The position numbers and the translations under genes were made by a program. The notes below the pieces were generated by a model that saw nothing but the letters and a program-made list of their open reading frames with translations, was not told the DNA's origin and did not search any database. A DNA stretch of 64,000 nt from Octopus vulgaris (taxonomy: Eukaryota), in contig OX597817.1 in the NCBI GenBank assembly GCA_951406725.2, positions 143,654,001-143,718,000 of the forward strand, in the 5' to 3' direction. Positions 21,799 to 57,323 of the stretch are shown piece after piece (the stretch's first letter is position 1; the number at the start of each line of letters is the position of its first letter).

Positions 21799-21864
21799 TT
21801 ATGCTGAGGGATTTCCTGCTGAACTGTCGTTGTCCTTCAATAATGGAGCCTTTTCGTTGTCGAT
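21799..21864 (-). CDS. SLC18A-like last exon (IDNEKAPLLKDNDSSAGNPSA*)
   Basis: ttttcttttaaccag acceptor, phase 0. ExxxLL motif at the position of VMAT2 EEKMAIL. TAA at 21801-21799. Confidence 0.8.
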   Translation of the reverse strand: MDNEKAPLLKDNDSSAGNPSA

Positions 21865-22351
21865 CTGGTTAAAAGAAAATGACATAATCACTGAAATAAT
21901 AACAACAATAACGATGACAACAACAATGATGATGACAATGACGATGATAACAATATAACAACAATAATGATAATATTACAATAATGATAATAATAATGAT
22001 AACAATAATGATAATATGATATAACAATAATGATAACAACAATGATGACGATGATGATAGTGTTAATAGGTATCAACAGGGTGGCCACGATGTCACGCAC
22101 CAAGGGAGATATCAAGTATGCTTTATTAGCAATGAAGTAGGTAATCCATTACAAATGTTCAAAGTGTTGGCCATGGAGCTCTAAACAAGTGTTCATATGG
22201 AACATTGCTATTGAGAGAAACGGTGACAATGTTGAGAAGTTGGGATGCGATCCACAGAGGACCAGCTTCATTTTGATGCATGATACATGTTCCTGCATTG
22301 GTATATTTTACCTGTCCTAAACAAAATGGCATTACTTTTTGACTGACACTC

Positions 22352-22422
<71 letters not shown>

Positions 22423-23375
22423 GCAGTCATAGCACATAATGTTTGAGAAGTTCATTTCTCAGCCATGTGCTTTTGAGTTTAGACTCAAAGGCACATGGCT
22501 ACAACCCTCAGCCAAATAATGTCTTGTGAGTGACTTCAGTAGATAGAAAAGCAGCCCCATACATAGAAAAATACAGACATACTTTCAGAAAGAGAAATTG
22601 ATCAGCTAATTTGTACATTACAAGTGCAATCTGTGAGTGGAACAGTAAAAATATGCAAGACTTTTCTCAAGTTCCAAATGTGAATTTGTCTCCCAAAGAT
22701 GGAGCCTTGTATCTTTGTTGGAAATCAGCTCCCTCCTCAGTGGAAGATTTATAATATTAAAAAAATAGAAGTGGTTAGGGAGCTTGCTTCCTAGCTACAT
22801 GGTTTCGGGTTCAGTCCCACTGCGTGGCACTTTGGGTAAGTGTCTTCCACTATAGCCCCGAGCCGACTGGAGCTTTGTGATTGAATTCGGTAGGTGGAAG
22901 TTACTGCCGTGTGTGTATGTGTGCATATAGCTGCTCAGTGCCTCTCCGAAAGAGAGAGAGGGAGAAGTCATACATAAATACATATATACATACATATTTA
23001 TATATATATGCATATGTATATATATGTACATGTATGTATAAATGTGTGTGTGTGTATTGTTCAGTTACTGTCTACCAAATCCACTGAAAAGTTCTTGCTT
23101 GTCTCAGGTCTACATTAGCTGATATTTGCTCAAGGTGCTATGGAGTGAGACTGAACTTGAAGCCACAGGGTTGGGAAGCAAACTTCACAACCGTATGTGT
23201 GTGTGTGTGTATGTGTGTGTATGTGTGTGTGTGTGTGTGTGTGTGTATGTGGTCATGAACTGCTTATCTTGACATGTGATACCCATGTCACACACATGTA
23301 GTTGTTGTGATGCATGTGCCTGGTGTACCCTTATCAGACAGGTATATTTTACCCCAATGCACTGCTCTCTCATTC

Positions 23376-23416
<41 letters not shown>

Positions 23417-23420
23417 AATA

Positions 23421-24111: not shown

Positions 24112-24380
24112 TGTGCGGGTGGCAGTAAAAGCACCCACTACACTCACGGAGTGGTTGGCGTTAGGAAGGGCATCCAGCCGTAGAAACACTGCCAGATTTG
24201 ACTGGGCCTGATGAAGCCTTCTGGCTTCACAGACCCCAGTAGAACCGTCCAACCCATGCTAGCATGGAAAACGGACGCTAAACGATGATGATGATGATGA
24301 TGATGATAATGATGAATAATAATGATAGTAACAACAACAACAACAATGTAAATAAATGAAGCAAGTCATCTTGAACTCAC

Positions 24381-24462
24381 CTTTTTCTTTCCTGGAATGT
24401 CTCTGAGAAATATGGTTATCGGTGTACACACCATATCCAGTATTGCAGCGCCATAGACCAAA
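24381..24462 (-). CDS. SLC18A-like exon, TM12 (SLVYGAAILDMVCTPITIFLRDIPGKKK)
   Basis: Like VMAT [20 protein letters not shown]. 82 nt, AAG|gtgagt donor. Confidence 0.92.
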
Positions 24463-26038
24463 CTACAAACAAAGAAAAGACAGAAATATAAACAACAGCA
24501 GTTCATAATCTTTCAAAGTGTTTGTTTATTTTTGTTGTTTAGCCCCAATCCAGGCCTGATTGAGCAGTCCTATGATCGAAGATGTTTCACCCATGACCAT
24601 CCTGCCTTGTTTTTTTTTTTTCGGGAATATTATGCAACAAACTACATTTTTATGCTTTCTTTTGTAAATGTTTTGCTTGGTAGAAACAAGTTGGACCCAT
24701 ATGGCCCATGGCTGTCATAGACCTTTCAAGAACAGTCAGATCAATACGGTTGATTTTCACCTTCAGCACTTGCGAGTTGACAACCAGCATCCAAACATGG
24801 CTCACAGCTGTCAACTTGCAATTAATGTGTTTCTAGTTTCTCAAATCAGTGAACAGGCTTGAATGATTAGAACAAAGTGGGTTCTGCTGAAAGCCCCCCG
24901 GGAACCAGATAAGGGTATTAAACTGTGAGTTCAATTTGTGGATCTGACAGTATGTTATCTTATTTCATGTTGCTTCACTCTGCTCCACTAAAGTAAGTAT
25001 CAGTCAATTGCTGGGTTAGCTTGCCCTTCTTCCTATCTTCCATCCAGCTGTCCAAGCCTGGGTGATCTGCCGATCAAAAGTGAGTGGTGGGTGCCAAGAA
25101 GGGATGTCAACATCTGCTTATAATTATTTAGGTCCCTAAAACAATTATCAAAAGCATAGTGCATGCTTCTGGGTCATACTCATTCATAAGTGATATCTAA
25201 CCGTACTGTATATTTCGTAGTACAGCATAGCATAGTTTTAACCATTTATTATTTAAACCAGTCATATTCCAAGGCATATAGGAAGTACTTATTCTAACCT
25301 AAAAATGTCGTAAACAACCTCCATGGGTCCTATATGCAAAGTTAAATTTCCTCTAGGCTTTAGTGCTTTACAAACATTTTTCCTGAATAAGTGCTGCCAA
25401 AATAAGGGTGCATCTTATATGTCCATACATCTTTTCTGTCAATGAATATGGTAAAATAACTCGTTGTCTCTACTAATGTTCTATAGAAATTATAGCCAGC
25501 ACTGTCTGTAGGAATAACCTCAACAAGTGATTTAATAGCACTGCTAACACAGTAGAACACTGGATTGACTTATAAAAATTATTAAGGGGAATATAAATGT
25601 ATTTAGGGATCGTGTTAAGGTGTGTTTTATCATTGGTGATAAACGTGAAACAGACAAGAAGAAGAAACTGAGTCAGACAGATAAAGAAGATACTCAGTGG
25701 TCATAGATAATGACTGACCCAGTTGTCTGAGAGACGGGAGGAGATGGAGATCGGCCCATAATTGTAAAATGCATATAGGAATGGTGCATGAAGGAGATGA
25801 AGAATTTCTGATCAAGGGCAATTTCTATGATTGCGTTTAGGGCTACCAAGATTAGTGGAAGGAATGGAGGAAGCGATTCTCAAATCAGAGAACTGGTTTA
25901 AATGATTAGAATAGAGTGGACTCTGCTAAACTGTGGACTCTCCTAAGAACATCACGGGGCCAGGTGTTGGTGTTAAACTGTGACGGATTAATTCTACCAT
26001 TCAAATAATTGTAATAGTATAAAAGTAAATATATTTAC

Positions 26039-26084
26039 CTCTGGAATCCATAAGCATAAACAAGTGGACCGCCAACTAACGGAC
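26039..26084 (-). CDS. SLC18A-like exon (GPLVGGPLVYAYGFQ)
   Basis: Like VMAT GPSAGGAIAKAIGF. 46 nt, tttttttccag/gtaaat sites. Confidence 0.9.
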
Positions 26085-26239
26085 CTGGAAAAAAACCAAA
26101 GTGATAACAATACTCAGTAAAACATTTGGTGCAGGCGTGTGTGAGAGAGCTTGCGTGAGTGCTTGTGTAAGTACACACAAACACACACACGACAACTATT
26201 CGCTTGTGACCGAGGAAGACTATTACTGACCATTGCCCA

Positions 26240-26391
26240 TGCAAGAGTGGCTGTGTGGTAAGTAACTTGCTTACGAACCACATGGTTCCGGGTTCAGTCC
26301 CACTGCGTGGCACCTTGGGCAAGTGTCTTCTACTATAGCCTCGGGCCGACCAAAGTGAGTGGATTTGGTAGACGGAAACTGAAAGCCCGTC

Positions 26392-26477
<86 letters not shown>

Positions 26478-26695
26478 GTGTATGTTTATGTGTCTGTTTT
26501 TGTCCCACCAACAGTGCTTGACAACCAATGCTAGTGTGTTTACGTCCCCGTAATCTAGCGGTTCGGCAAAAGCGACCGATAGAATAAGTATTAGGCTTAC
26601 AAAGGATAAGTCCTGGGGGCGATTTGCTCGACTAAAGGCGGTGCTCCAGCATGGCCACAGTCAAATGACTGAAACAAGTAAAAGAGTAAAAGAGT
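26240..26695 (+). mobile_element. tRNA-derived SINE family A (CORE-like segment, internal TA/TG microsatellite); other copies ~3226-3575 +, 5358-5735 -, 6898-7250 +, 12658-13025 -, 14387-14772 +, 14941-15277 -, 33720-34130 -, 52306-52736 -
   Basis: A box tggctgtgtggt, B box ggttcagtccc, core accttgggcaagtg, tail cagtcaaatgactgaaacaagtaaaaga. Confidence 0.85.
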
Positions 26696-27463
26696 ATCTG
26701 TATTGCACTCATAGGCAGCTTCGACCGGGTCCGTGCTCATAGCTTCCATGCTCGTCGTGGTACCTTTCTGCTTGACTGCACACTGAACAGTTGTCTTGCC
26801 AGCGATTGCGTGACCAAACATTTTAGGTCGAATAAGGCTTGGGCAACACGTCATAGTTGAAAACACTTGCCCGCGCTACGATGCAGTAAGGCTGAACCCA
26901 AAATCACATGGCTGGGAAGCAAGCTTCTCAGCTACTGAACCTATACCTGTTCCTATACACACATCACCCCCACACTCCTGTACAAACACACATATAGGAT
27001 AGTATGAAATGTGTCCATCTGTATACTTATTTCTCGTTTGTGTGTTGCTGTTCTCTATACTCCAAATGCTTTTCTTTGTCAGTCCATCACCTTACTGGTG
27101 CAACTAGAGGAGGAACACCATGGAATTTAAACTGCACCGATACTACGCGAATTCTGGACTCCATGGCTGATGAGAGGTGTTCCATGATTAATTTGTCATT
27201 TTCCATAACTGTTTCCAGGTTCTGCTTTGATTATCACTACACACACATACACGTTTGCACTCTCACACACAGACACAAAAACACATATGCATACACACAC
27301 ACATGCGCGTGCAACACACAAACACACGTATGCGTGCATGTATGTATGTATCTATGTATGTATCTATCTATATATACACACATCATTTAAATTTATGCGA
27401 AACATTTCGAAGATATATATGTATATATATATATATATGTGTGTGTGTATACATGAATACATA

Positions 27464-27515
<52 letters not shown>

Positions 27516-27930
27516 AAGCAGATGAGTGGTACAACAAGGCACCAATATTTACTGGAAAATAGCAATCGATACAAATTCGACACTATTGTAAAGCTTCACT
27601 GCATATTTACTAGCAAAGACGTGTGTGTGCAACAAACACGAAAAATTTGTCTTACCTCTCGGAAGAACATTCGATAAATAGACAACCTAGAATCGGATAA
27701 TGCAGGACCGGTTTCTGACTCTCTCAAATACGTTTGACAACGTAAGTTTGATCAGTCTTCATCAGTTGCATTTACCTAGACAATATTTCAAATGTTGCCA
27801 CATCAGTGCCAGTATACTCGCCTGAACGCCTAACCGTTAACAGAACCGAGAACAGTGAAGGAGTTTACAATGAAAAATAATTCTACCCTTATGGGGCTTT
27901 ATTTTACTGGAAAGTAATACATTTGTATTG

Positions 27931-27988
<58 letters not shown>

Positions 27989-28257
27989 ACACATACACGC
28001 AACACACAAATACAAATGAATATATGTATTCAAACACATATACATATATATTCATATATAAATACATATATAAACACACACACTTGTACACATACACACA
28101 CACTCTTATATGTATAAACAAAGAAATTTTGATTGAATTGTCTGTTAAAATCCTCAATGTAAATATTATAAGCATCAGTTTGAAAGAGAAAAGAGAAACA
28201 GAAGTAAAGTAGTGAAACAAAGGAATGCGTGGGGAGGAATGTTCCAGTGGTACTTAC

Positions 28258-28377
28258 CCAAACTCATTGATAAACACACGGCCATGTCAGATATAGCATA
28301 GACGTTACCATAAACCTCACTGTGACGCTTGTCAACCACAAGCGCAAATATTGGCTGCATGGATGTACTGATCAAAC
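28258..28377 (-). CDS. SLC18A-like exon, TM10b-TM11 (GLISTSMQPIFALVVDKRHSEVYGNVYAISDMAVCLSMSL)
   Basis: Hallmark VDxRHxxVYGxVYAIxD motif of SLC18A. 120 nt. Confidence 0.96.
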
Positions 28378-29414
28378 CTATAAAGATTTGAAATAAAACA
28401 CAACTGCAGTTATAACGTTTGTGTGTGTGTGTGTGTGTGTGTGAAACGGTAAAGTTCCATTTATCCTTTATTTTGGAGGGTTCCAAAGGGGAGATTTCAA
28501 ACAAAGATTCTTCATACTTCGTTGGTAGCTTATTGGCGTAAGATTTTTGCGAAAATGAAATTATTATATGTATAAGGTATGAGATGAGAATTTATGGAAA
28601 GGTATCCGATGAAGGAGGCGGCGAGCTGGCAGAAACGTTAGCACGCCGGACGAAATGCTTAGCGGTATTTCGTCTGCCGCTACGTTCTGAGTTCAAATTC
28701 CGCCGAGGCCGATTTTGCCTTCCATCCTTTCGGGGTCATTTAAATAAGTACCAGTTACGCACTGGGGTCGATGTAATCGGCTTAATCCGTTTGTCTGTCC
28801 TTGTTTGTCCCCTCCATGTTTAGCCCCTTGTGGGCAATAAAGAAATAAGGAAAGGTATCCCATAGAAACGCAACAGACTATTAAAGATGGAGAAGAGATG
28901 TTAAAATTTTAAAAGATGAATTTTAGTACATGCATTCGATCGTTTCGAACAGCAATATTAGCATGTAAGTGACATGGTAGATTAATTATAAATTAAATTA
29001 AATTATTTAATTACATATTACTGCTCTCCTCAGTATGACAAGGAACCAAGACATTATGTAATGAACTTCATTAGGTTACAGCAGTTTCTGATATATGATG
29101 CTATGCACTCATAGTTGAGTGCTTGTGCATCACCCTAAAGCTTCGTCTGAGCTTAAAAAATGAATTGCAATTCTATTTGAGAAGACATTTATATATATGG
29201 AAAACATCACCATCGAATAGTATAAAACAGCATAGGGGGTCATATTACAAATACTTGGCCCATCTTGTAACTAACGTTGACGGCGAGAACTAAATAAGGC
29301 ATAGTAGTGGTGGTAGCGGTGGTGGTGGTAGGATTACAAATGCAATCGTTAAAAGGGGAGGAGGAGGAGGAGGAGGAGGAGGGGACGTGGGTGAAAGTTT
29401 TTGCAATAACTTAC

Positions 29415-29478
29415 CAACTGCAAGACCGAGGAATCCTGTTACCACCAACATCATCGTAAACGTTATGGAATAGGCTAG
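29415..29478 (-). CDS. SLC18A-like exon, TM10a (LAYSITFTMMLVVTGFLGLAV)
   Basis: 64 nt, phases 0/1, ttccag/gtaagt sites, hydrophobic helix. Confidence 0.9.
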
Positions 29479-30269
29479 CTGGAAGAATTGAAAGAACAAT
29501 AATAGAATGACTACAAGAAGAAAAGAAAGAAAAAACAACAAAAATAAATCCAACAAGTCAAATAAACTGCAGCAAAGATTCGAAACCTAATCGGTCAGTC
29601 ACCATGTGTGAGCCACCGTAGTTTCACATGATTGGTCTATAAATCGACCAATCAGCCTGAGGCTGTGGCGTGATATGGTTTTCTCGAATATCCCCTGTAA
29701 AAATATTTTTGTGTTCAATTGCAGAGTGTTGAAGGCAGCTGACTGACTCAGGTACCTATACTCTTGTCATGTAGATGTCCAACGGACTGCTGATGCCACA
29801 AATTGCCTCGGAGAATTGCGCAGATGATTCCGTTTAAATTATGGACCTACCGCATGTTGTCACACAGATAGCCTTATATATTTTCAGAACAGTTTTCCTT
29901 TCCTCTCATTCAGCAATTACTTATATCATTCATTGCAATTCGCCAACACAAAATGTCTTTATGTCTGGCAATAAATATTAGTTAATGTTCGTATGTTTGC
30001 TTCAGTTATTATTCACACAGCCATTGAAATATATCTTCATTGACCAGTTCAAATCAAACGACAGCAAATTTCTCGCGACAAAACAAATACATTTGTTAAC
30101 AATTGTTATCAACATAGACAAGTCAGTGAGGTGACAGAACAGTTGGAGCGTTGGGCAAAAGATTTCGAAGGAATTCTTCGGCTGTTTACAAATTCGTGAA
30201 TAGATAGGTGAAGTAATTATTGATGGAAAAGACAGACAGAAAAGGAAGAAAAATATGAATAAAACTTAC

Positions 30270-30321
30270 CGCCATAAGACACAGGGAACTGAAGAACAAA
30301 CCAACGAGACCTTGAATCCAC
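30270..30321 (-). CDS. SLC18A-like exon, TM9 (RWIQGLVGLFFSSLCLMA)
   Basis: Like VMAT RWLCALLGMIIVG. 52 nt, tttttag/gtaagt sites. Confidence 0.9.
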
Positions 30322-30445
30322 CTAAAAATTATGAATATATAATGGATTAATTAACGAATTAATTCTACAATAAAACATGGGGAGTGATTTTGTTTGATTA
30401 AAGCAACAATACATGAGTTAAATAGTAATAATAATAATAATAATA

Positions 30446-30492
<47 letters not shown>

Positions 30493-30950
30493 AATAATAA
30501 TTTTGGTACAAAGTCATCAGTTTCGGGGTAAGGTGTAAGTCGATTACATCGATCCCAGTACTCAACTGGTACTTTCTTTATCGACCCCAATAGGATGAAA
30601 GGCAAAGTGAACCTCGACGGAATTTGAACTCAAAGCATAAAGACAAACCGAAGTGCCGCTAAGCCCGGTGTGCTAAAGATTCTACCAGCTTGACGCCGCC
30701 ATAGGTTCAAATATGAAAATATAAGTTCACTGGAAGAGGAGGTTAACTAATCAGCCTCCATTTAAGTTTCTGCTTAAATTTTAACTTTGATTTGTGGTTT
30801 CAGAAATCTTAGTAAAAATTACGGAATTCGCCCGAATGTCAAAGGCAGAATTTTACTAGGGACAACATGTTGAAGAGAAAGTTCAGAAGTATGGGGAGAG
30901 AGAGAGAATGAAAGAAAAGTTTGATGTTGGAAATGTATATATTTACATAC

Positions 30951-31029
30951 CTAGGAAACCATCTGACGAGACGAGGAAATATTAAACCAGCAGCCAAGTA
31001 TCCAACAGATGTCGGTAGAACAACGATTC
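30951..31029 (-). CDS. SLC18A-like exon, TM8 (GIVVLPTSVGYLAAGLIFPRLVRWFP)
   Basis: Like VMAT GVAFLPASISYLIG. 79 nt, phases 1/2. Confidence 0.92.
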
Positions 31030-31108
31030 CTAAAGAAAACGAATAACGAATATATATATAAGCAATAATAAATCTCTGAACGAGGTATGAACAGTAGCTG
31101 CACGACAA

Positions 31109-31419
31109 TGTGAAGTATATTTGCCACTTAAATGTGGCTAACCACTAAGGGTGGATGCTACTGTAGCTTGTAGCCCCAGGAGAACATCTTCTCCAGCTGG
31201 CTATTGACACACTTTCTGTGTCCTATCGGTATGTGCAAAGGGAAGTCATCCTTCCCATCGTCGACCTGAAGTGGGAAGGATGGCTTCCCTTTGCAAATAC
31301 TGATAGGGCACAGAAAGTGTGTCAATAGCCAGCTGGAGAAGATGTTCTCCAGGGGCTACAAGCTACAGTAGCATCCACCCTTACTGGTTAGCCACATTTA
31401 AGTGGCAAATATACTTCAC

Positions 31420-31420
<1 letters not shown>
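31109..31420. repeat. 312-bp fold-back inverted repeat (MITE-like)
   Basis: ~149-bp near-perfect arms (tgtgaagtatatttgccac.../...gtggcaaatatacttcaca) with a ~14-nt loop. Confidence 0.92.
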
Positions 31421-31474
<54 letters not shown>

Positions 31475-31520
31475 TACACACGCACACATATATGCCTACA
31501 TACATACACATACATATATA

Positions 31521-31860
31521 TACGAGGGTGAGTCAAAAAAGTAGTGCCATTTTGTTTAGGACAAGTATAATTACCAACACAGGAACATGTATCATACATC
31601 AAAATGAAGCTGGTCCTCTGTGGACCGCATCCCTACTTTTCAACATAGTCACCGTTTCTCTCAATGAGAGCATGTATCACCTTCAAATGAGAGCATGTAT
31701 CCCTGCCCCCTAAAATTCTGTTGACTGTTCTTTGAGTCATTTTTTCACTACAGTTTTCACTTCCTCTCACTGGAATAATGTTTGCCTCTCAAACTCTTTT
31801 GTGACGCTGAAGAGATGATAATCTGAAGGCGCTAAATCTGGCGAGTGTGGAGGTAGTGAA
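31521..31860 (+). mobile_element. Mariner-derived fragment; a related inverted copy lies at ~22190-22355
   Basis: TA-cgagggtgagtcaaaaa TIR-like start, with shared internal sequence (atcaaaatgaagctggtcctctgtgg). Confidence 0.6.
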
Positions 31861-32436
31861 GAAGTGGCTCATATACATACCCAACACTAATTCGCCAAAG
31901 GGAAACTCTTACAGCTCCAAAGAAAGAACCAGTACACACACACACACACACACATACGTCCAAATAATGTACACATTGGTACAACTGACACACGCATATA
32001 CACACAAACATACAAATACACCTACGAGAATCACAACGCATACACTAACACTGAAAGAAACATACAATCTTACACTTGCACACACGCAAAATATTCATAG
32101 ACCGCTCACGGTCAGTCTCTCATTTGCTCTCGTACGTATGAAACCTCTTCCCTTCTCTAATTTGTGGTCACCTTAAGGTACTTCTAACATAGCTTAACGC
32201 AGACTAAAACGTATTTCTCTCTAATTCCCGTTTATTCTTGTTTTAATAATTTCCAACTCTCTGTCTTTTTTGAAGAAGTGCTAAAGCTCGAAATATCAAG
32301 AACACTTCTTTCATATCTTTCCCAACGTGTAAATCTACATTACGCTCTTGGTTTTTACCTGGGCATTCTTGTTATCCGTTCGTCCACCCGTCTGCCTGTC
32401 TGTCTGTCTCTGTCTGTCTGTCTGTCTGTCTGTCTG

Positions 32437-32502
<66 letters not shown>

Positions 32503-32816
32503 ATAATCAATTTTGTTTTTTACTTCGTCACTTGTTATCTCCATTGATAAATTTACCGATCTGTCAGCCATCCATCCCTCTGTCTGTCCGTCTGTCAGTT
32601 CATCTGTCTGTCTGCATACTACGTGCTTCTGCTTAGTTGTCATTTACCAAGTTCCATTCAGAAGATATTTGGTTAATCCGAGACTGTTATTGAGTTATAA
32701 TTAATTACCCAAGGCGGAGAAGCAGTGAGAATCGATCCCATAGCTACGTCGTTACAAAGCAAACTCTTTAACAACATACGGTTTAAGCTGAAATGGTAAT
32801 ATTTAATCCTACTTAC

Positions 32817-32912
32817 CAAGTTGCCAAGTGGAAGCATTTATCAGTTCAAGAAGTCTTATCGGTAAGAACGCCAATACAATTGAGACATCGAGATTCAGCA
32901 AAAAAATATTTA
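32817..32912 (-). CDS. SLC18A-like exon, TM7 (LNIFLLNLDVSIVLAFLPIRLLELINASTWQL)
   Basis: Aligns without gaps to VMAT [32 protein letters not shown]. 96 nt, tttttcag/gtaagt sites. Confidence 0.9.
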
Positions 32913-34798
32913 CTGAAAAATGTAAGAAATTAGAAAATGAACAAATAATAAAAAAAAACAGATAAATAATAATAAATAAATAAATGTTCCTGTATCGAAC
33001 GGATGATGTTGTTATGTCTGTTTAGTTTTGGATCTATCCTATTTGAGAGGAACTATGATCAAAGGTGTTTTATTTGTGATGATCCCTGTCTTTTATTCCG
33101 ACTTACTGGTATAGTACTATATTATTGTAGCAGGAATTTTTTTGGCTGTCTCAAACACTTACTGCCGAGGAATCGAATGCAAATCACTGTGTTCAGTCAA
33201 AAATGTCTAAACAACAGGATTAATGACATCAGCTAAGAACTGACCACTCACATCTCTTGAAGAAACATCATGAACTTGTTTTTCTCAGTAGCTAGCTGAC
33301 CAGCAAAAAATACAATGGATCCAACAGATGCTTAACTCATTAAATCCCAGTGTTATAAACAAGCATTGTTTTGGTCGAACAAAATATGGATTGTCATTAA
33401 AACGTTTGTTTTTGGTGGCTTTTCTTTGAAATGCATTAGTTATATTTCTACTTGTATTTCTACTAACTGGCCAGTGGACATCAAAGTAACGAATGCAAGA
33501 ATTTACAGTACTTGACGACAGTTACAAAATATAGCCGCGACGAACGACGACGAACGACGACGACAAATGATAACGACGACGATGAATTCAGTCCACTCAT
33601 GGCTGTTGTCGTTGCTGACACAGACACACATCTCATACAAACTGCTGAACCGCTTCACTTGGTTTAAATATCTTTTCTGTCGTATGTCATAACGACACAT
33701 TGTTTTAATCTTTTATTCTTTTATTCTTTTATTCTTTTACTTGTTTCAGTCATTTGACTGCGGCCATGCTGGAGCACCGCCGTTAGTCGAGCAAATCGAC
33801 CCCAGGACTTATTCTTTGTAAGCCTAGTACTTATTCTATCGGTCTCTCTTGCGGAACCGCTAGGTTACGGGGATATAAACATACCAGCATCGGTTGCCAA
33901 ACGATGTTGGGGGACAAACACAGACGCACAAACATACACACACACATACATATGTATACATATATACGATGGGTTTCTTTCAGTTTCGGTCTACCAAATC
34001 CACTCACAAGGCTTTGGTCGGCCCGAGGCTATAGTAGAAGACACTTGCCCAAGGTGCCACGCAGTGGGAATGAACCCGGAACCATGTGCTTGGTAAGCAA
34101 GCTACTTACCACACAGCCACTCCTGCGCCTATTTTGTTATCGATAAATAAATAATTTGTATTTGGGATTTCAGACTTCTTGATCTTTCATCGCAACACGT
34201 TTAATAGGAGTTACATATGTTCTTTTAATAACAGTTTGACTCACGACTTAAAGTACCTGCCACTAACATCTGATGAGATGGACGTGTCCTACACACCCAC
34301 AAAACTGAAAGTCATATGGTGCTGAGTTGTACAGACACACTTGCTGAAACCAACCTGTCCAGTTACATGCAAGCATTAAAAAAACCATAAAATTAAATAT
34401 AAATTAGCTTGTTTCATAAAATTAAATATAAATTAGCGTGTTTCACCAAACTATACAAATATAACAAACTCTATTTACTTAGTACGTCCATCGCATGCAA
34501 AGCATTGCTCTCAATTTCCCCCTGTCCTAGCTGTATATTTATGAACGAATATAAACGCCAAAATATTTTAAACCATTTATAAGATAATGAAGAATATAAT
34601 CTACGAATTTGAGTGCTTTTACTCCCCACCAATTGAAAAGAATCCGTAAAATCGATATGAATTGAAATATAGAAAACAGCCATCGTTAATTATGTTGCCT
34701 AACGTTCATAGAATATTCGTTTGAAAATTTTTAGTTCTTAAAAGCATTTGGAAAGACGACTGACAAGAAAAGTAAGTGATATAAAAAGCAGCACTTAC

Positions 34799-34856
34799 AT
34801 GCGACAATGATGATGTAGGGATCTTTGAGTAATGTACAGAGGGAGCCATGTAGGTG
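34799..34856 (-). CDS. SLC18A-like exon (HLHGSLCTLLKDPYIIIVA)
   Basis: Hallmark LLKDPYI motif of SLC18A. 58 nt. Confidence 0.93.
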
Positions 34857-34935
34857 CTGTAGAAATAGATATGAAGAGGAAAGAAATCATAATACAAAAA
34901 AGAATATACATACATAATATATACATACATACATA

Positions 34936-34966
<31 letters not shown>

Positions 34967-35073: not shown

Positions 35074-35141
<68 letters not shown>

Positions 35142-37249: not shown

Positions 37250-37290
37250 CTTCACCGAGGATTCTCTCTTCATTGTTAATAACTGAAGAA
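37250..37290 (-). CDS. SLC18A-like exon (FLQLLTMKRESSVK)
   Basis: 41 nt, ttatttcag acceptor, AAG|gtaagc donor. Phases 1/0 bridge the flanking exons. Like VMAT IQLFVLQPSRVQPE. Confidence 0.85.
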
Positions 37291-38857: not shown

Positions 38858-38947
38858 ATATAGCGAAGCTCATGATACCAGATAGAAGAATGAAAGGAAA
38901 AGCAGGGTTGACAAATTCAAACAGAAGACTTCCATACACGGGACCAG
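38858..38947 (-). CDS. SLC18A-like exon, TM5-6 (AGPVYGSLLFEFVNPAFPFILLSGIMSFAI)
   Basis: Like VMAT GPPFGSVLYEFVGKTAPFL. 90 nt, cag/gtaagt sites. Confidence 0.93.
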
Positions 38948-39297: not shown

Positions 39298-39390
39298 CGA
39301 TAATTCCAATGGACAATCCACTAAACGCATAGCCTATTACATTTCCCCGGCGATAATCATCTTTGAATGTTGCTGCTACAAGTCCTAGAG
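39298..39390 (-). CDS. SLC18A-like exon, TM5 (ALGLVAATFKDDYRRGNVIGYAFSGLSIGII)
   Basis: Like VMAT [24 protein letters not shown]. 93 nt. Confidence 0.93.
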
Positions 39391-41047: not shown

Positions 41048-41131
41048 CTGTTACCGCTGTCAGCGAGGACGAGATTCCTTGTAACACTCGAGTAACTATC
41101 AGCATCCAGTAAGTTTTACTGTAGGGAAAAG
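41048..41131 (-). CDS. SLC18A-like exon, TM4 (AFPYSKTYWMLIVTRVLQGISSSLTAVT)
   Basis: MFS motif B RxLQG. 84 nt, cag/gtgagt sites. Confidence 0.93.
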
Positions 41132-42156: not shown

Positions 42157-42215
42157 CTAATGTGGAGAGGAGAAGGACCAAGCTACCAAACAACATCGGC
42201 TTCCGATAACCAAAT
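42157..42215 (-). CDS. SLC18A-like exon, TM3 (RFGYRKPMLFGSLVLLLSTL)
   Basis: Like VMAT RIGYPIPIFAG. 59 nt, cag/gtatgt sites, phases 2/1. Confidence 0.92.
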
Positions 42216-43743: not shown

Positions 43744-43776
<33 letters not shown>

Positions 43777-44155: not shown

Positions 44156-44363
44156 CTTGTTACAATATAACCGACGAATGGATTACATACAAACTGTGCA
44201 ATGCCCTTGGCTGCAATCAGGTAACCATAGCGACCTTGGTTATTTATGTCTTTATTCACGTCCCTGTCTTGTGACAACGATAAAGTGTCGTTCGGATTAT
44301 TGGAATCGTTTTCCGATTGCTGGGGATGTTCCAAATCGTAAAGCATTTCCGGTAAGATCGGAT
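44156..44363 (-). CDS. SLC18A-like exon, lumenal loop + TM2
   Basis: DPILPEMLY...[24 protein letters not shown], like VMAT [24 protein letters not shown]. N-glycosylation sequons NDS and NDT. Phases 1/2. Confidence 0.93.
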
Positions 44364-48480: not shown

Positions 48481-49149
48481 CACACATATACACACATAAT
48501 TTCTTGTTATTGTATTTAGAGCTGTTGAAACTGCTACAGAATATGGAATAATCTCGAAAGATATTTGTTTACAATAACGCATTATTCTCAGTCAATGGCG
48601 TCCATTGTTTTGGTTCTGTGTTAAACAAAAGAAAGTTGTGTTGAGTTTCCATAACTTTATTGTCAAACACTTGTCACTGCCTCACATGAGTTATTCGTTA
48701 AATGAATTTATTTAATCGATTAAACAAAACTAGTGTAGGATTCTCAGATTTAAATGTTTTAAAAATCAAATTCAAAGGATTACATTTAAAAAGAGAAACC
48801 GAGACAAGACATTTATATCGGTTATTTTGTAATGATTCGTTTATATTTTAGTACATTCCACCTCAAGGAATTATCTAATTTTTTTTAATTTTTATTTTTA
48901 ATCAATAAAACTTTAATTAGAATTAAAAGAAATTCTCAAGTGTCTATCGTGAATCTTGAAGTATTTTGCCTTCTACACAGCTTCGTATCTTGTTTTCGGT
49001 ATCACTTAAACTCACAGTCACTACACATATATCAGAAAACAAACTCGTGTCGCTACTCCTTCTTTACTCGTGAATAATACGGTTAACTTTCATAAACTTG
49101 TTACAAATACTAATTTTTCCCCACTATTTCACGATCTTCCATGACGACC

Positions 49150-49408
49150 ACACACACACAAAAACACACTCACACAAATACACACAAACACTCACTCACA
49201 CACAAACACACACAAACACACACTCACACACACACAAACACACACACTCACACACACAAACACTCACACACACACTCACACACGCACACTCACACACAAA
49301 CACTCACACACACACATACACACACACAAACACACAAACACACACACACAAACACACACACAAACACTCACACTCAAACACACACACACAAACACTCACA
49401 CACACACA

Positions 49409-49462
<54 letters not shown>

Positions 49463-49646
49463 CTCACACACACACTCTCTCACACACACACTTACACACA
49501 CACAAACACTCACACTCACACACACACTCACACACACACAAAAACACACACAAAAACACACTCACACAAACACACACACACAAACACTCACACACAAACA
49601 CACACACACAAACACTCACACACACACACACACACTCACACACACA

Positions 49647-49699
<53 letters not shown>

Positions 49700-49767
49700 T
49701 CTCTCTCTCACACACACACACAAACACTCACACACACACATACACACACACAAACACACACACACAA

Positions 49768-49798
<31 letters not shown>

Positions 49799-49808
49799 GA
49801 CACACACA

Positions 49809-49869
<61 letters not shown>

Positions 49870-49872
49870 ACA
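49150..49872. repeat. Degenerate (CA)n mega-tract with CAAA/CTCA interruptions
   Basis: ~720 bp composed almost entirely of C and A. Confidence 0.95.
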
Positions 49873-51900
49873 CGTGTACAATATCGGAAAAATTGCACAA
49901 ATACTAGGCTTTATATTTTAGAGTTAGAACATACAATAGTCTTTGGTAAGTTGATTACACTGGCTGAACAAACCGCTAGGAGAATCTTGAAGTCGCAATG
50001 AACATTATTTTTCACAATAATTCTGACTCCTCTCTCAGTAAAGAGTAACACCATCAATAAATGATAAGTTTTTAATCTTGAAAGTGCTTTAAAGTTACCT
50101 CATTTTAACATTTCAGTTGATGATACTCTACTAAGCACAAATATAATTTTTATCCAGAAGACTGCTCATACGTCTGGAACAGCTGCTACTACATATACCA
50201 AAATTACAGACCACAAAATACAACTACCAATAGAGTAAAATACATCTAACTGGGGCAGAGATGCTTGTATATATATAAACACCTTCGACAACACCCAAAG
50301 ACTCGTGTTGGCGAGCTGGCAGAAACGTTAGTACGCCGGGCGAAATGCGTAGCCGTTATTCGTCTGCCATTACATTCTGAGTTCAAATTCCGCCGAGGTC
50401 GACTTTGCCTTTCATCCTTTTTGGGTCAATAAATAAAGTACCAGCTACTCACTGGGGTCGATGTAATCGACTTAATCCCTTTGTGTGTCCTTGTTTGTCC
50501 CTTCTATGTTTAACCCCTTGTGAGTAGTAAAGAAATATTTTTATATTGTCTTCGTTCACTCATACATAAATCTCTTCGTTCTCTGGAACATAGGCCATCG
50601 GCAATTTTTCTCTGCTGTTCTAGACTCTGGGCTATCTTAGGGCCACTCATTCAGTATGGATGGTTGGGAAGGGTAACCCTTATCTTGTGGGAAGATCTTT
50701 TTCTCCCAGATATTGTTGATTTTATATCGTAATTGATGCTTCTCTAACTTCGTATTTTTCTAGGTAGGGTGGTTGGCCTTACACAGGTTTATTTTTATCT
50801 TTGGGGAGAGGTGATCCATACTCGTCTCACCGCCATCATTTGACCTGTCCAGCATGTGAGACCCTACCAGGATCTTCAACTCTGCTGGCCTACGTCTCAA
50901 GGTCACTGAGGCACACAAGTCACTACATCGCAACATGTCTTTGTAAATTGATTGTCTTGTACAAATGAACGCCCATGCCCATTGGAATATGAAAATCTTA
51001 CGTTCTTTTACGTTTATGATCAAGCTGGTGGTTTGGATCTTCCACATTGTGACTCTGTGTTTTTTCAACCACCACTTAGTTCTGTGTCTGCAAGTGTTTC
51101 AGAGAGAATGAAGAAAGCTCATAAGCCATTATATTTTCGTTCGTGAGCTGATGTTCCTATTAAAGATGTATCATAGAGATAATTAAAAAGCTTTATTGGT
51201 TTTCTTGTCCTCGTAAAACTGGTTTTCAAATTGGCTCTTGTAAAACAGTCGTAGCAAGAATCCAGCTGAGATTCAAGCCGTAGTTCTTAAATTTTCCCAG
51301 TCCAGAATCGCGACCTAATATATTTCCATAAAAGGGAAAGAGTTACCAAAAAAAAAAAAAAAAAAGAAGATATTAACGCCTACACGAATGTGGTTTGACC
51401 AATCAGCAACAAGCTGACCTATTTTTGAATGAGGTGACAACATCAGGAGAATATGCAAGTTTTCACGCCATACAAATTATAGAACAGCGATTCACCACCG
51501 CAGCTCTCAGGGCCGCATGTGGCCCTCAAGCATCCTTACGGCAGCCCTCTATGGTCTTCCTTCCATAGATATAATATATATTTTTTAATTGACTTGTGTT
51601 TTACTTTTTTGATGCAGCCCCCAGGTTTGGGATTTAGCCAGGATATAAAAACGGTTGAGAACCGCTGTTCTAGAACCTTCTGAGCAAGCAGTCATTTAAA
51701 GGGGAGCTCATTCAACTTAGAGCTCTTTTAAAACTTGTACAGGTCGGTCGTTTTCTCCCATGTGGTAGTCTCTCATCTCTTTCATCTTGCTCTCCTGTTC
51801 GCAGGCCTTAATTAGTAATGTCAATCAACGATTGTTCGTTTATGCAGGGATTCCCATGCTCTGAACCACTATCATGATATTCATTTATTGGATGTAAATA

Positions 51901-53018: not shown

Positions 53019-53410
53019 GTGGAGGCGCAATGGCCCAGTGGTTAGGGCAGCGGACTCGCGGTCATAGGATCGCGGTTTCGATTCCCAGACCGGGTGTTGT
53101 GAGTGTTTATTGAGCGAAAACACCTAAAAGCTCCACGAGGCTCCGGCAGGGGATGGTGGTGATCCCTGCTGTACTCTTTCACCACAACTTTCTCTCACTC
53201 TTACTTCCTGTTTCTGTTGTACCTATATTTCAAGGGGCCGGCCTTGTCACTCTCTGTGTCACGCTGAAAATCCCCGAGAACTACGTTAAGGGTACACGTG
53301 TCTGTGGAGTGCTCAGCCACTTACACGTTAATTTCACGAGCAGGCTGTTCCGTTGATTCGGATCAACCGGAACCCTCATCGTCGTAACCGACGGAGTGCT
53401 TCCATTCCAT
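53019..53410 (+). mobile_element. tRNA-derived SINE family C; other copies ~37947-38280 +, 53690-54004 -, 54115-54280 +, 54582-54975 +, 60976-61343 -
   Basis: tRNA-like head ggaggcgcaatggcccagtggttagggcagcggactcgcgg..ggtttcgattccc followed by a shared non-tRNA body. Confidence 0.85.
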
Positions 53411-55079
53411 TTATAGATCATAAAATGTATGCCCAGACATAATTCACTGATGAAATGTAATGAAATAGAATAATTGCTATGAATTCTGCGAATTTAATTC
53501 TTTATTCTTTAGTTTCAAAGCAGCAGATTTTATGGGCACAGTTGTTGATGTCGCAGAAATATTGCTCTTAATTTAAATTACATGGAAAACAGGTGGATGA
53601 AACGATGAAACTATGGTCTGACACATTATATGATGTAGTAGTCCAGGGTACACCGTGTGTGAGAAATAATTAATTCTTTTATTTATTTATTTATGCTCCC
53701 TTTCCAAGCCCAGCCAGGCTCATGGGCACGGTTTCCCGGTTTCTGTGGCGTATGTGCTCCCCCACCCCGCAGCTGTACGGGACGCCAGTCCATTGCAGCG
53801 TTTCTCAAGAAATAGGAAGAAAGATTGAGAAAAAGTTGGAGCGAAAGAGTACAACAGGGGTCGCCCCCTCCCCTGCCGGAGCCTCGTGGAGCTTTAGGTG
53901 TTTTCGCTCAATAAATACACACAACGTCTGGTCTGGGAATCGAAATCGCGATCCTCCGACCGCGAGTCCGCTGCCCTAACCACTGGCATATTGCGCCTCC
54001 ACTGTGAGAAATAATGCTAAAAATAATTATGATAATAAAAATACTGGACAAACATTGGATATAGGTTTTTCTCAATCAAAGCAAACCTGGGGCCAAACAA
54101 CAACAGCAGCAGCAGTGGAGGCGCAATGGCCCAGTGGTTAGGGCAGCGGACTCGCGGTTGTAAGAATGCGGTTTCGATTCCCAGACCGAGCATTGTGAGG
54201 CTCCGGCGGGGGTGGGTGGTGAACCCTGCTGTACTCTTTCACCACAACTTTCTCTCACTCTTTCTTCCTACTTCTGCCACAAAGCAGCGGAATCATGGTG
54301 TAACCCACTATGGTGTGGTAAACTTTCAGACCCTAGTCTAGATTGCGAATTCTCTGTACCCCAGGATGGTTCAGCTCTCCACCCGTTAAAAGCCACCGTT
54401 TACGGATTGAGGATAACAACGTAGCTTTCGCGCCCGTGCAGCCGCCAGTCTATCGCGTGTGATGGGTGGATCTTCAAGTTGCCACACGCATTCTTAGTAG
54501 CTTAGAGTATACTCGAATTAGAGATTATTCTTTGTGGCTAATGGCGTGAGTCCTGATTGGAAGAAGAAGACAGCAGCAGCAGTGGAAGGCGAAATGGCCC
54601 AGTGGTTAGGGCAGCGGACTCGCGGTCGGAGGATCGCGGTTTCGATTCCCAGACCGGGCGTTGTGTGTGTTTATTGAGCGAAAACACCTAAAGTTCCACG
54701 AGGCTCCGGCAGGGGGCTGTGGCGACCCCTGTTCTACTCCTTCGCTCCAACTTTCTCTCACTCTTTCGTCCTGTTTCTTGTCCCCGACTTCCTACGCAAC
54801 CGCTGAGCTTGGATGCACATTCATCCATCCGTCGATGCTCTCGGTGTCGGGGGTTGACCTGTTTTCTCTTCTGCGGGTCTTACGAATAGCAAAGGACCAT
54901 GTTTCGGACTTCTTCAACTACAGACAATCCTGAGGCGCGATCTTGCGAGCTCTGGGACGAAGACCGCTTCGCTCAACAAAAAAACAAACAAACAAAAAGC
55001 AGCAGCAGCAGCAATAACAACAACAACAACAACAAAACTATTTGTTTTCCAAAAAGAAAATAGCCAAGAATTTACTTAC

Positions 55080-55257
55080 CAACCAACGTTAGCAGCAAAC
55101 TGTCGTTGAATAATGAAAGACACACGATGATAATTACAATCTTCGTTGAATTCCGGAACCTTGACCAACAAGTTTTTTCCTCAGCGGGGCCTTCACGCAT
55201 GACTACGATACTTGAAAGCATGTGCTCACCATCCGCCGCTGGTTCGCCGATATATTC
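55080..55257 (-). CDS. SLC18A/VMAT-like transporter exon, N-terminus + TM1
   Basis: Encodes ...RNSTKIVIIIVCLSLFNDSLLLTLV, like VMAT [22 protein letters not shown]. ttttcatcctcag acceptor, G|gtaagt donor. Confidence 0.9.
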
Positions 55258-57320
55258 CTGAGGATGAAAACGATGTTGAAACAAGTTGCTTGCAATAAAA
55301 TTACTATCTTTGAAGGTTCATGGTAACATATTGTGACATATCGTAGTATCTTGCAACATCTGATAACATGTAACATTTGATAACACCTCGTAACATCTGA
55401 TAGTATATTGCAACATCTGGTTACATCTAGTAATATCTCCCGGGAAAATTCTGACCACTATACACCAACGAGTCAACGAGGGAAACTCTGATATGTTGCC
55501 GACTTGCGAGAAATAGCACTGAAATAATTTTTAAAGTACACCCTACAAACTTAAAAATAAAGACCAGTTGATCATGTAGTTCTACATACATTGTGTCTGA
55601 AAAACAAAAGTTAGGAGGGCGATCATGGCTAGACCCATTTTTGAACATAGCTTTGTTTAATCAGAGCTACTACTGAGACAACAACAACAACAATAATTAC
55701 TACAACACCATCTATTGTATTCATTTTATATATTCTCAGTATTTAAAAAAAATTTTAATCAATTATGGAATTATTTAACCATTATATAAATTCTAAATTA
55801 TTTCACATAAAATATTCACCGAAAATCCTTTACATTTATTTATTAAACCGCAAAAGCAAATTTTTGGTTTTGTATAAAAGAATATGTATGCATAATTAAA
55901 TTTAAATATAAAAGAATAAAGAACACACATCACGCGATGATAGGAATTTTAACCGCATAGTTCCTGTTTAAATGACTTAACTCCTATTAAGGAATTTACA
56001 TTAACCGAACAATAGCCATTCTACAGTCTTTCATATGACCTGAAAAGTATTCGTTTTGTGAAAGTGCATTGTAATATCTGTCTTGAGAAGTGACACGAAA
56101 TCTGCTTGTATTGAGAAGCTTTTGTAATTGAGAATATTATTGATATTTATATTTTATAGACCCTAGCGTACCACTGGTATTTATTGTGTTCTAGTCTACA
56201 CGGAATAAAATTGGTAACAAAAAGTCAGTTTCAACACAAGATGAATTAAAATTTTGTAATGCAGGGAAAACTACGTTTCTGCAAACAGTCTGCTTTTTTT
56301 TCTCTCCTTGTTTTTTTTTTCTGTGTCCCTTTCTGTAGAAGAGCGTAGGCTCGAAACACAAAAGACTTTTTCAATTCCTGAACGTTATACTAATACATAT
56401 GCTTGTTTTGTACACCACCTGTCTTCGTCTTTTGTTTTTTTCGTGAACTCCCCCCTATAAATTATTTATCTCTGACAAGGACAGAGCTTACCACACTTAC
56501 CTCCCTTTCCTTCCCGTTAACTCATTCCCCTTCTCTCCTAAACATACGACACTAATTTTTAAGGGACATATCAGAATAAAAATAACTCCCAAATGTTTGA
56601 CGAAACGTCTTGAGGTATATTAAAATCTACCTCCTCTTTCCTGCAATAACATCTTTCGCGATTAACTCCCAATGTCAATGTTAAGAGGATAAAAATGGCA
56701 TTAAACAGGATTTGTAATCAAAGCTAATGATGGATAAGGCGATGAAGGTGTGAAAATGAAATATAAATACAAATCTACTGTTTGTATCTTTTAGTTTATT
56801 TTCTGAATTTTTATTTGTAATGTTTTAAAGTTTATCCATTTATCAACGGTTTAGCATACTCCTCTATGTTGTGAGCTTTGATTGAATGACATCTGTGATC
56901 AAAGGCGTTCCAGCCATGATTATCTCGTCCATTACCCGGGCATTGTGTATGTAGGACTATCACCCGTTTTCGCATCATCACCACCTACCGCTTGAGTACC
57001 TTTCACAGGGGCAGCTCTGTTGCAAGCATTCAGGCCAGGTCACCTATTTAAATTTAACTACTGCCTTCCTTCCTACTACAGCCGCTCTTGGTGGTCCCAG
57101 AAAAAAAATAAAGGTCAACAATGCTGCCTTTACTTCCTTGACTAATGAAGGCATGGTATATTTTGAGGGACTGTTGACTGCTATTAGTAAAAAGTTGAGC
57201 AGCCTCATAGAGTCTCCTTCGTCGTCTTTCCCCCCCTTCCTTGTCATTGTTTTATAGGTGACTAAAGCAACAAATAAACATAGTTTGCGATTCAGTTGAA
57301 ACATTTTCAGGATTGCTCAC

Positions 57321-57323
57321 CAT
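57321..57323 (-). CDS. SLC18A-like transporter, tentative first exon ending in ATG
   Basis: Minus strand reads gcagcagtagATG|gtgagc. A phase-0 splice to the 55257 acceptor gives in-frame MEYIGEP. A CACGTG E-box lies ~55 nt upstream. An alternative start is ATG at 55221. Confidence 0.4.

What the first reader, a model, noticed from the sequence alone, without database searches (positions are those of the whole stretch)
21799..57323. Orphan VMAT-like vesicular transporter with a rewired substrate pocket
Seen in sequence: an intact ~472-aa, 12-TM SLC18A-like ORF with canonical, phase-consistent splice sites and no disabling lesions. I aligned it by hand to human VMAT2 (residue numbers from memory). 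Retained: D33, K138, Q142, R189, N305, Y341, D426 and D460. Lost: E312->Leu (TTG 32874-32872) and D399->Ser (AGT 28369-28367), the acidic residues established as central to amine binding and proton coupling; both have counterparts in VAChT. New membrane aspartates appear at G307 (GAT 32889-32887) and V41 (G|AT across the 55080/44363 junction). Inference: this is neither canonical VMAT nor VAChT, but a divergent paralog that may package a different transmitter or secreted metabolite. It is analogous to Drosophila portabella, which differs from VMAT at the TM1 Asp instead.
Basis: partly seen in the sequence, partly recalled or inferred. Interest (0 to 1): 0.85.

Follow-up and report, generated by a model that had tools for sequence, protein, structure and literature searches.

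The report
Ancient orphan VMAT-like transporter lineage
This intact, expressed octopus gene belongs to an old, unnamed branch of the neurotransmitter-packaging transporter family, shared with chitons and annelid worms, that has lost the acidic residues its relatives use to grip amines and so probably carries a different, still unknown cargo.

Summary
The gene is real and intact. From Met14 on it equals RefSeq XP_029634522.2 (Octopus sinensis), and transcript-like contigs from four studies match the predicted splicing. All four substitutions (V41D, G307D, E312L, D399S in human VMAT2 numbering) are confirmed.

It is not an octopus oddity. It belongs to a conserved clade (support 100/100) with cephalopod, chiton and annelid members, separate from VMAT, VAChT and the portabella-like clade. 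E312 is Leu in 11 of 11 members and D399 is Ser/Thr in 11 of 11, against Glu and Asp in 29 of 29 canonical relatives. The hinge network (D33, K138, Q142, R189, D426) and cytosolic gate are kept. The luminal plug is remodelled (V41D, W318R, F135I, F334V), and a tail dileucine signal is conserved.

Best reading: an organellar carrier of a neutral or zwitterionic, non-monoamine solute (0.55; substrate unshown). Lead, orthology unverified: a squid VMAT-like gene with no fly or human ortholog marks photoreceptors and pigmented retinal cells.

Corrections: the start exon lies outside the window (about 488 aa), D460 is not informative, and the portabella-like clade differs at TM11, not TM1.

The parts
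57321..57323 (-).
55080..55257 (-). Coding exon (178 nt): N-terminus, Met14 at 55221 (start of the RefSeq model), TM1 with D33 (55104-55102), N34S and the first base of V41D
44156..44363 (-). Coding exon (208 nt): V41D, luminal loop with two N-glycosylation sequons, TM2 with F135I, K138, Q142
42157..42215 (-). Coding exon (59 nt), TM3
41048..41131 (-). Coding exon (84 nt), TM4 with R189, Q192, S200A; the acceptor at 41131 fits the contig offset of 144
39298..39390 (-). Coding exon (93 nt), cytosolic gate R217, TM5
38858..38947 (-). Coding exon (90 nt), TM5-TM6; two synonymous differences in 3 of 4 runs
37250..37290 (-). Coding exon (41 nt), end of TM6
34799..34856 (-). Coding exon (58 nt), central loop and start of TM7
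32817..32912 (-). Coding exon (96 nt), TM7: S300N, N305, G307D (32889-32887), E312L (32874-32872), P313A, W318R (32856-32854)
30951..31029 (-). Coding exon (79 nt), TM8: F334V, Y341
30270..30321 (-). Coding exon (52 nt), TM9
29415..29478 (-). Coding exon (64 nt), TM10 with N388T
28258..28377 (-). Coding exon (120 nt), TM10-TM11: D399S (28369-28367), M403Q, Y418, Y422, D426, F429V, Y433M
26039..26084 (-). Coding exon (46 nt), end of TM11
24381..24462 (-). Coding exon (82 nt), TM12 with D460 (24437-24435)
21799..21864 (-). Last coding exon (66 nt): cytosolic tail with an acidic dileucine motif (21855-21838) and stop; first AATAAA at 21642

Best explanation
An intact member of an ancient lophotrochozoan (cephalopod, chiton, annelid) SLC18A subfamily, distinct from VMAT, VAChT and the portabella-like clade. 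It most likely works as a rocker-switch MFS carrier in an acidic organelle (secretory vesicle, lysosome or pigment granule) and moves a neutral or zwitterionic small solute rather than a cationic amine. Shown: intact spliced gene, fold, clade and residue pattern. Inferred: (a) the retained D33-K138-Q142-R189-Q192-D426 network still drives the conformational cycle and may couple a proton through D33/D426; (b) without E312, D399 and the pocket aromatics the core cavity goes from net -2 (four acids, two bases) to net 0, so there is no counter-ion for an amine; (c) the hydrophobic luminal plug is replaced by a D41-R318 type charge pair; (d) the tail dileucine motif sorts it to endolysosomal or granule membranes. 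Amino-acid-like solutes (tyrosine, DOPA, kynurenines, other amino acids) are the first candidates; this is a guess.
For: Clade of 12 sequences at 100/100; grouping with abalone VMAT rejected, p = 0.00017. E312 is L in 11 of 11 and D399 is S/T in 11 of 11, against E and D in 29 of 29 VMAT, portabella-like and VAChT rows; V41 is acidic in 10 of 10; K138, Q142, R189, Q192, S196, R217, N305, Y341, Y418, Y422 and D426 are kept in 11 of 11, D33 in 10 of 10. In human VMAT2 the amine of serotonin and dopamine salt-bridges to D399 and the hydroxyl binds E312, and mutating either lowers uptake (PMC11695631, passages); E312Q brings transport to essentially zero (PMC10959523). Of that paper's three polar networks, the first is largely kept here (8 of 10 residues), the E312-N388 pair is replaced on both sides (L and T/A) and the N305-Y341-D399 group loses its acid. 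V41, F135, F334 and W318 form the VMAT2 luminal plug and all four change here; W318R keeps wild-type transport in VMAT2. A [DE]xxxL[LI] motif is in the tail of 8 of 11 members. Identity to chiton and three annelid or unnamed members is 52-58%, like the 56% between abalone and fly VMAT. Spliced contigs occur in 4 of 4 runs laid.
Against: No transport, localisation or tissue data exist for this gene in my calls. Arg at 318 is in only 8 of 11 members (N, E, Q in the rest) and Asp at 307 in 8 of 11, so the proposed ion pair is not universal. The data do not reject the clade as sister to the whole VMAT group (p = 0.10). The 29 canonical rows were chosen partly by their residue pattern; in the wider set other divergent paralogs also lack E312 and/or D399 (amphioxus P0024, Xenopus P0047, Owenia P0041 and P0119), so losing these acids is not unique. 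C. elegans VMAT is reported to package zwitterionic betaine with a canonical role in monoamine neurons, so cavity charge does not fix the substrate class.
Confidence: 0.55

Rival explanations
1. Re-wired amine carrier: it still loads a cationic amine (histamine, a trace amine, choline or a polyamine), with D41, D33/D426 or D307 taking over from E312 and D399.
For: New acids at 41 (10 of 10) and 307 (8 of 11); N305, Y341 and R189 are kept. A sister position to VMATs is not rejected.
Against: Position 307 is 134 degrees off the cavity face on a helical wheel and is N or H in 3 of 11 members. Position 41 is at the luminal plug. The aromatics at F135, F334 and F429 are replaced in 11 of 11 members and Y433 in 9 of 11 by Met. 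VMAT, VAChT and portabella-like rows all keep E312 and D399 (29 of 29).
Confidence: 0.2
2. Uncoupled or non-transporting role: a facilitative uniporter, proton or ion leak, or regulator of vesicle acidification or of a partner transporter, kept for regulation rather than for concentrating cargo.
For: Two of the residues proposed as protonation sites in VMAT2 (E312, D399) are gone. TM7 also loses the proline at 313 in 11 of 11 members.
Against: D33 and D426, also proposed protonation sites, and the cytosolic gate R217/Y418/Y422 are invariant. The clade has its own invariant polar residues in or near the pocket (N300 and T400 in 11 of 11, Q403 in 10 of 11), as expected of selection on a binding site.
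Confidence: 0.17
3. It is the ordinary mollusc VMAT ortholog or a recent cephalopod duplicate of it, as the database name 'synaptic vesicular amine transporter(-like)' implies.
For: Best solved relatives are VMAT2 and VMAT1 (E 1e-82 against 4e-50 for VAChT); database names.
Against: Only 34% identical to abalone VMAT, which is itself 56-57% identical to fly and bird VMAT. AU test p = 0.00017. Members occur in chiton and three named annelid genera. I did not retrieve an octopus canonical VMAT, but a bobtail squid 'Vmat2-2' marks dopaminergic neurons (PMC12240821).
Confidence: 0.05
4. A decaying pseudogene, or a gene whose acidic residues are restored by cephalopod A-to-I RNA editing.
For: Loss of residues that are essential in VMAT2.
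Against: Open frame and canonical splice sites; spliced contigs with 0 differing letters in every listed exon piece; the same residues are fixed across phyla; A-to-G editing of TTG gives only Leu and of AGT only Ser or Gly.
Confidence: 0.01

Closest known systems
VMAT2 / VMAT1 (SLC18A2 / SLC18A1)
   Same: 12-helix MFS fold (8jtc: Z 53.3, rmsd 2.0 A, 36% identity); D33-K138-Q142-R189-Q192-D426 network, N305, Y341, cytosolic gate R217/Y418/Y422; tail dileucine motif. Most internal exon lengths match human SLC18A2 as I recall them (not checked by a call).
   Different: E312L, D399S, N388T, F135I, F334V, W318R, F429V, Y433M, V41D, G307D, S300N, M403Q, P313A; separate clade; shorter first luminal loop.
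VAChT (SLC18A3)
   Same: Same family and hinge residues; Foldseek and VIA matches.
   Different: 26% identity to the annelid VAChT-type row. VAChT-type rows keep E and D at 312/399 and have D at 200, W/F at 334 and H at 341; this clade has none of these. D398 is needed for ligand binding in VAChT (PMC11369146).
Portabella (prt, SLC18A4) and its apparent mollusc relatives
   Same: An orphan invertebrate SLC18A branch with an altered acidic residue; shares Val at 429.
   Different: That clade keeps E312, D399 and D33 and changes D426 to Q (9 of 9); this one does the opposite. Separate clades, 100/98 and 100/100. None of my rows is named portabella; the label comes from my recall of a TM11 Asp-to-Gln change.
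SLC18B1 (VPAT, polyamine transporter)
   Same: SLC18 family member with a non-monoamine substrate.
   Different: No SLC18B1 sequence was in my trees. In the feature search an SLC18B1-like cluster ranks 18th, behind SLC18A clusters.

Membership tests
SLC18A branch | 12-TM MFS fold closest to VMAT/VAChT | tested here: met
   MFS_1 E 2e-46; PDB hits are VMAT and VAChT only at E <= 1e-10, 16 of 16; model Z 53.3 to 8jtc
SLC18A branch | D33-K138-Q142-R189-D426 hinge network | tested here: met
   N34 and S200 differ
SLC18A branch | Proton-coupled antiport | not testable with these tools
   needs an uptake assay
SLC18A branch | Location in secretory vesicles | not testable with these tools
   only a tail dileucine motif in 8 of 11 members
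VMAT (SLC18A1/2) | E312 in TM7 | tested here: not met
   L in 11 of 11 members, E in 12 of 12 VMAT rows
VMAT (SLC18A1/2) | D399 in TM10 | tested here: not met
   S/T in 11 of 11, D in 12 of 12 VMAT rows
VMAT (SLC18A1/2) | Aromatic gate residues F135, W318, F334, F429, Y433 | tested here: not met
   I, R, V, V, M in this protein
VMAT (SLC18A1/2) | Groups with the mollusc VMAT ortholog | tested here: not met
   AU p = 0.00017
VMAT (SLC18A1/2) | Sister to the whole VMAT clade (ancient duplicate) | tested here: inconclusive
   AU p = 0.10; deep branches unresolved
VMAT (SLC18A1/2) | Reserpine-sensitive monoamine uptake | not testable with these tools
   needs an assay
VAChT (SLC18A3) | E309/D398 acids, D193, His338, membership of the VAChT clade | tested here: not met
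Portabella-like (SLC18A4) | Gln in place of the TM11 Asp with E312/D399 kept; membership of that clade | tested here: not met
   D426 kept in 11 of 11; separate clade; the defining feature and the clade label are from recall
SLC18B1 (VPAT) | Membership of the SLC18B clade | not tested
   no SLC18B1 row in the trees; one search is only a weak pointer away from it

The most novel reading that the evidence does not exclude
The clade is a fourth invertebrate SLC18A class that loads a non-amine cargo into vesicles or pigment granules of lophotrochozoan eye cells. Its squid ortholog would be E. berryi 'Vmat2-4' (EB48422, a family with no fly or human ortholog), a marker of photoreceptor r1 (33.5% of cells against 3.1%) and tyrosinase-positive pigmented cells, in a retina where no acetylcholine, serotonin, dopamine or octopamine presynaptic markers were detected. 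It would then define an unrecognised photoreceptor co-transmitter or a pigment-precursor import route built on the VMAT scaffold.
Probability: 0.2. Interest if true: 0.85.

Novelty: new variant of a known kind. Interest (0 to 1): 0.62.

Why it matters
The described invertebrate SLC18A set is VMAT, VAChT and portabella; a 2026 bivalve study still reports a single VMAT in all protostomes it analysed. A further branch conserved from octopus to annelids, with both amine-binding acids fixed as Leu and Ser, would be a natural experiment on what E312 and D399 do and on how the VMAT scaffold changes cargo. It gives one defined gene to de-orphan. It is also a practical trap: databases call it 'synaptic vesicular amine transporter', so cephalopod and annelid transcriptome studies may score cells that express it as monoaminergic.

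Tried and rejected
Microexon between 42157 and 41118: none plausible; an upstream acceptor at 41131 gives the 84-nt exon and fits the contig offsets.
First exon of the orthologs: not found in the window on either strand (best match 7 of 17 residues, with a stop).
No whole genome was held, so the other octopus SLC18 genes, synteny and dN/dS could not be examined.
Run search: no holder is on record as RNA and no tissue is given. The joints table showed only repeat-derived joints (15 shown, 417 hidden), so splicing rests on the offsets of exon pieces within contigs.
O. bimaculoides 'vat1/slc18a1' in glutamatergic medulla cells (PMC9815951): no gene id in the one readable supplement (the other was too large). 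The squid paper lists 'Vat1l' in the equivalent cells, so it may be an unrelated VAT-1-like gene; not used as evidence.
Orthology of squid EB48422: tried by synteny with the neighbouring splicing-factor gene; no matching row in the marker tables, and that file was cut when stored. Ommochrome-pathway terms were absent from those tables. Idiosepius eye 'slc18a2' carries no accession.
Literature: 10 searches found no description of this clade. The passages read in Goulty et al. and the 2026 opisthokont preprint name only VMAT, VAChT and SLC18B, and the accessions were not found in Goulty's readable supplements (one scanned file unread, tree files external). The library lacks most subscription papers, and bioRxiv supplements were closed, so this is not proof of absence.
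ESM Atlas: generic SLC18 clusters only, no structure search. Earlier findings of the scan: none.
No gastropod or bivalve member was named in the searches, but they scored only 8000 and 7999 candidates and the 50% library hides close relatives; absence is not claimed.


Full report
1. The observation. I rebuilt the gene from the minus strand. Seventeen segments from 57323 to 21799 join into a 472-codon open frame with AG/GT at all 16 introns. Residues 14-472 are identical to P0001, RefSeq XP_029634522.2 of Octopus sinensis, named 'synaptic vesicular amine transporter-like'. The ATG-only first exon is doubtful. O. bimaculoides, O. vulgaris, Argonauta and unnamed P0003 share a 17-residue N-terminal segment that is absent from the window, so the protein probably has about 488 residues.

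2. Expression. Twenty of 24 listed runs hold part of the exon-3 region. I laid four of them, from four studies, on 24340-44330. Single contigs carry exon pieces at spliced distances. The 28375-to-44156 offset is 719 as predicted in X1, X5 and X6; the 198-nt offset fits in X1 and X3; the 190 and 144 offsets fit in X1. Every listed exon piece has 0 differing letters, including the TM7 and TM10 exons. Two differences in exon 38947-38858 are synonymous. The runs are only guessed to be RNA, no DNA run was laid, and tissue is not given. The junctions of the first two and last three exons were not checked by reads. A-to-I editing cannot restore either acid.

3. The family. Searches with P0001 and with a 9-sequence profile returned 9 of 8000 and 10 of 7999 scored candidates: O. 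sinensis, Argonauta hians, two Liolophura sinensis (chiton) genes, Owenia, Dimorphilus, Capitella, and three unnamed proteins. Cluster look-up added O. bimaculoides, O. vulgaris and two further Capitella fragments. A FastTree of 137 of 158 proteins (21 dropped for under 75% coverage) placed these together with support 1.0. An IQ-TREE LG+G4 tree of 48 rows that I picked from the 204 in hand gave 100/100 for the 12 clade rows, 100/100 for VAChT-type, 100/98 for portabella-like and 82/97 for a VMAT-containing group; the order among these is unresolved and there is no SLC18B1 outgroup. Holding the clade with abalone VMAT is rejected (p = 0.00017); holding it with the whole VMAT group is not (p = 0.10). 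Group labels rest on database names for some rows and on residue patterns for the rest. Identity of P0001 is 56-58% to chiton and 52-55% to four annelid or unnamed members (40% to Capitella), but 33-34% to VMATs, while abalone VMAT is 56-57% identical to fly and bird VMAT. The clade therefore predates the mollusc-annelid split and is conserved about as tightly as VMAT. dN/dS was not computed.

4. The pocket. In a 40-row alignment (11 clade, 12 VMAT, 9 portabella-like, 8 VAChT-type; fragments left out) E312 is Leu in 11 of 11 and D399 is Ser or Thr in 11 of 11, against Glu and Asp in 29 of 29 others. Kept in all members with a residue: D33, K138, Q142, R189, Q192, S196, R217, N305, Y341, Y418, Y422, D426. 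Changed in all or nearly all: V41 to D/E (10 of 10), F135 to I/V, S200A, S300N, P313A, F334 to V/I, N388 to T/A, M403Q (10 of 11), F429V. Variable: 318 (R in 8 of 11), 307 (D in 8 of 11), 460 (D in 7 of 11). Against over-reading: the canonical rows were chosen partly by these residues, and other divergent paralogs in amphioxus, Xenopus and Owenia also lack E312 and/or D399.

5. What the VMAT2 papers say (passages and two sections read, not whole texts). PMC11695631: the substrate amine salt-bridges to D399 and contacts N305, Y341 and Y433; the hydroxyl binds E312; V41, P45, F135, F334 and W318 form the luminal plug; D399, E312, D426 and possibly D33 are protonation sites. PMC10959523: three polar networks (D33/N34/K138/Q142/R189/Q192/S196/S197/S200/D426; E312/N388; N305/Y341/D399); E312Q and R189A bring transport to essentially zero; W318R keeps wild-type transport but loses tetrabenazine binding. 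PMC11369146: D398 substitutions abolish vesamicol binding in VAChT.

6. Mechanism. Shown: the fold (mean pLDDT 75.1, pTM 0.73 from a 9-row alignment; best match VMAT2 8jtc, Z 53.3, rmsd 2.0 A) and the residue pattern. Inferred: network 1 and the cytosolic gate are kept, so the protein should still cycle. Networks 2 and 3 have lost their acids and the aromatics are gone, so the core cavity is net neutral and lacks an amine counter-ion. Four of the five luminal plug residues change, and V41D with W318R suggests an ion-pair gate. On an ideal helical wheel, positions 300 and 307 lie 114 and 134 degrees from the 305/308/312 cavity stripe and on one face with each other, so D307 more likely sits in a buried polar patch than in the pocket. 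I could not measure distances. A tail [DE]xxxL[LI] motif, mostly with Pro before the leucines, is present in 8 of 11 members; from recall, that form is typical of lysosomal and melanosomal proteins. Together this favours an organellar carrier for a neutral or zwitterionic solute (0.55) over a re-wired amine carrier (0.2), an uncoupled or regulatory protein (0.17), an ordinary VMAT (0.05) or a pseudogene (0.01).

7. An expression lead, unverified. In the bobtail squid atlas (PMC12240821; passages, two sections and supplement searches) 'Vmat2-2' marks dopaminergic neurons. A different gene, 'Vmat2-4' (EB48422, family OG0011759, no fly or human ortholog listed), is a retina marker of Photoreceptor_r1 (0.335 against 0.031, p 6.8e-306) and Pigmented_Tyro1+ cells (0.36 against 0.042). 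The authors detected no acetylcholine, serotonin, dopamine or octopamine presynaptic markers in that retina. A family without fly or human orthologs fits this clade, but no sequence was available and a synteny check was blank. The numbering implies at least four VMAT-like squid genes, so it may be another paralog.

8. Comparison and novelty. It is an SLC18A-branch protein but fails the defining tests for VMAT, VAChT and the portabella-like clade. Ten literature searches found no description of the clade (listed under Tried and rejected). Goulty et al. (PMC10244343, passages) and a 2026 preprint (passages) describe only VMAT, VAChT and SLC18B, and a bivalve preprint reports a single VMAT per protostome analysed. 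Unseen supplements and tree files could contain these sequences unlabelled.

9. Verdict. A real, expressed and ancient SLC18A subfamily with a consistently rebuilt substrate site: a new variant of a known kind. It stays well above ordinary because the changes are fixed across two phyla and lead straight to an uptake screen.

Noticed in passing
window 4548-4784, about 5830-5910, 8660-8770, 10870-10950, 11840-11950 (+ strand): Exons of a G-patch protein (Pfam G-patch, E 5.7e-15) ending near 11950, tail to tail with the transporter; from recall it looks like splicing factor 45 (RBM17). Useful as a synteny marker.
   Followed up: partly
P0041 and P0119 (Owenia fusiformis, adjacent accessions CAH1798159/60) with P0114, P0132, P0147, P0152: A second divergent SLC18A-like group (FastTree support 0.999) that lacks E312, D399 and D426, with an acid at position 41 in some rows. 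Possibly another unnamed subfamily.
   Followed up: no
P0020 (Sinanodonta woodiana), P0031, P0139: A bivalve protein falls in the portabella-like clade (100/98) with Gln at D426, suggesting that branch is not limited to arthropods.
   Followed up: partly
P0024 (Branchiostoma lanceolatum), P0047 (Xenopus laevis): Long-branch VMAT-like proteins that independently lack E312 and D399 (W/S and Q/G).
   Followed up: no
P0004 and P0005 (Liolophura), P0010, P0037, P0112 (Capitella): The clade is duplicated in chiton (two genes, longest contig of equal length) and has three divergent models in Capitella.
   Followed up: partly
P0160 (O. vulgaris model), P0165 (unnamed): The O. vulgaris model lacks the TM1 exon, probably an annotation gap. 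An unnamed relative of P0003 has a different N-terminus, hinting at alternative first exons.
   Followed up: no
window introns, e.g. 26173-26696, 28616-28846, 33733-34132, 42295-43103: High-copy dispersed repeats (very high contig depth) and many microsatellites, the longest a 725-nt CA array at 49149-49873; ordinary for an octopus genome.
   Followed up: no
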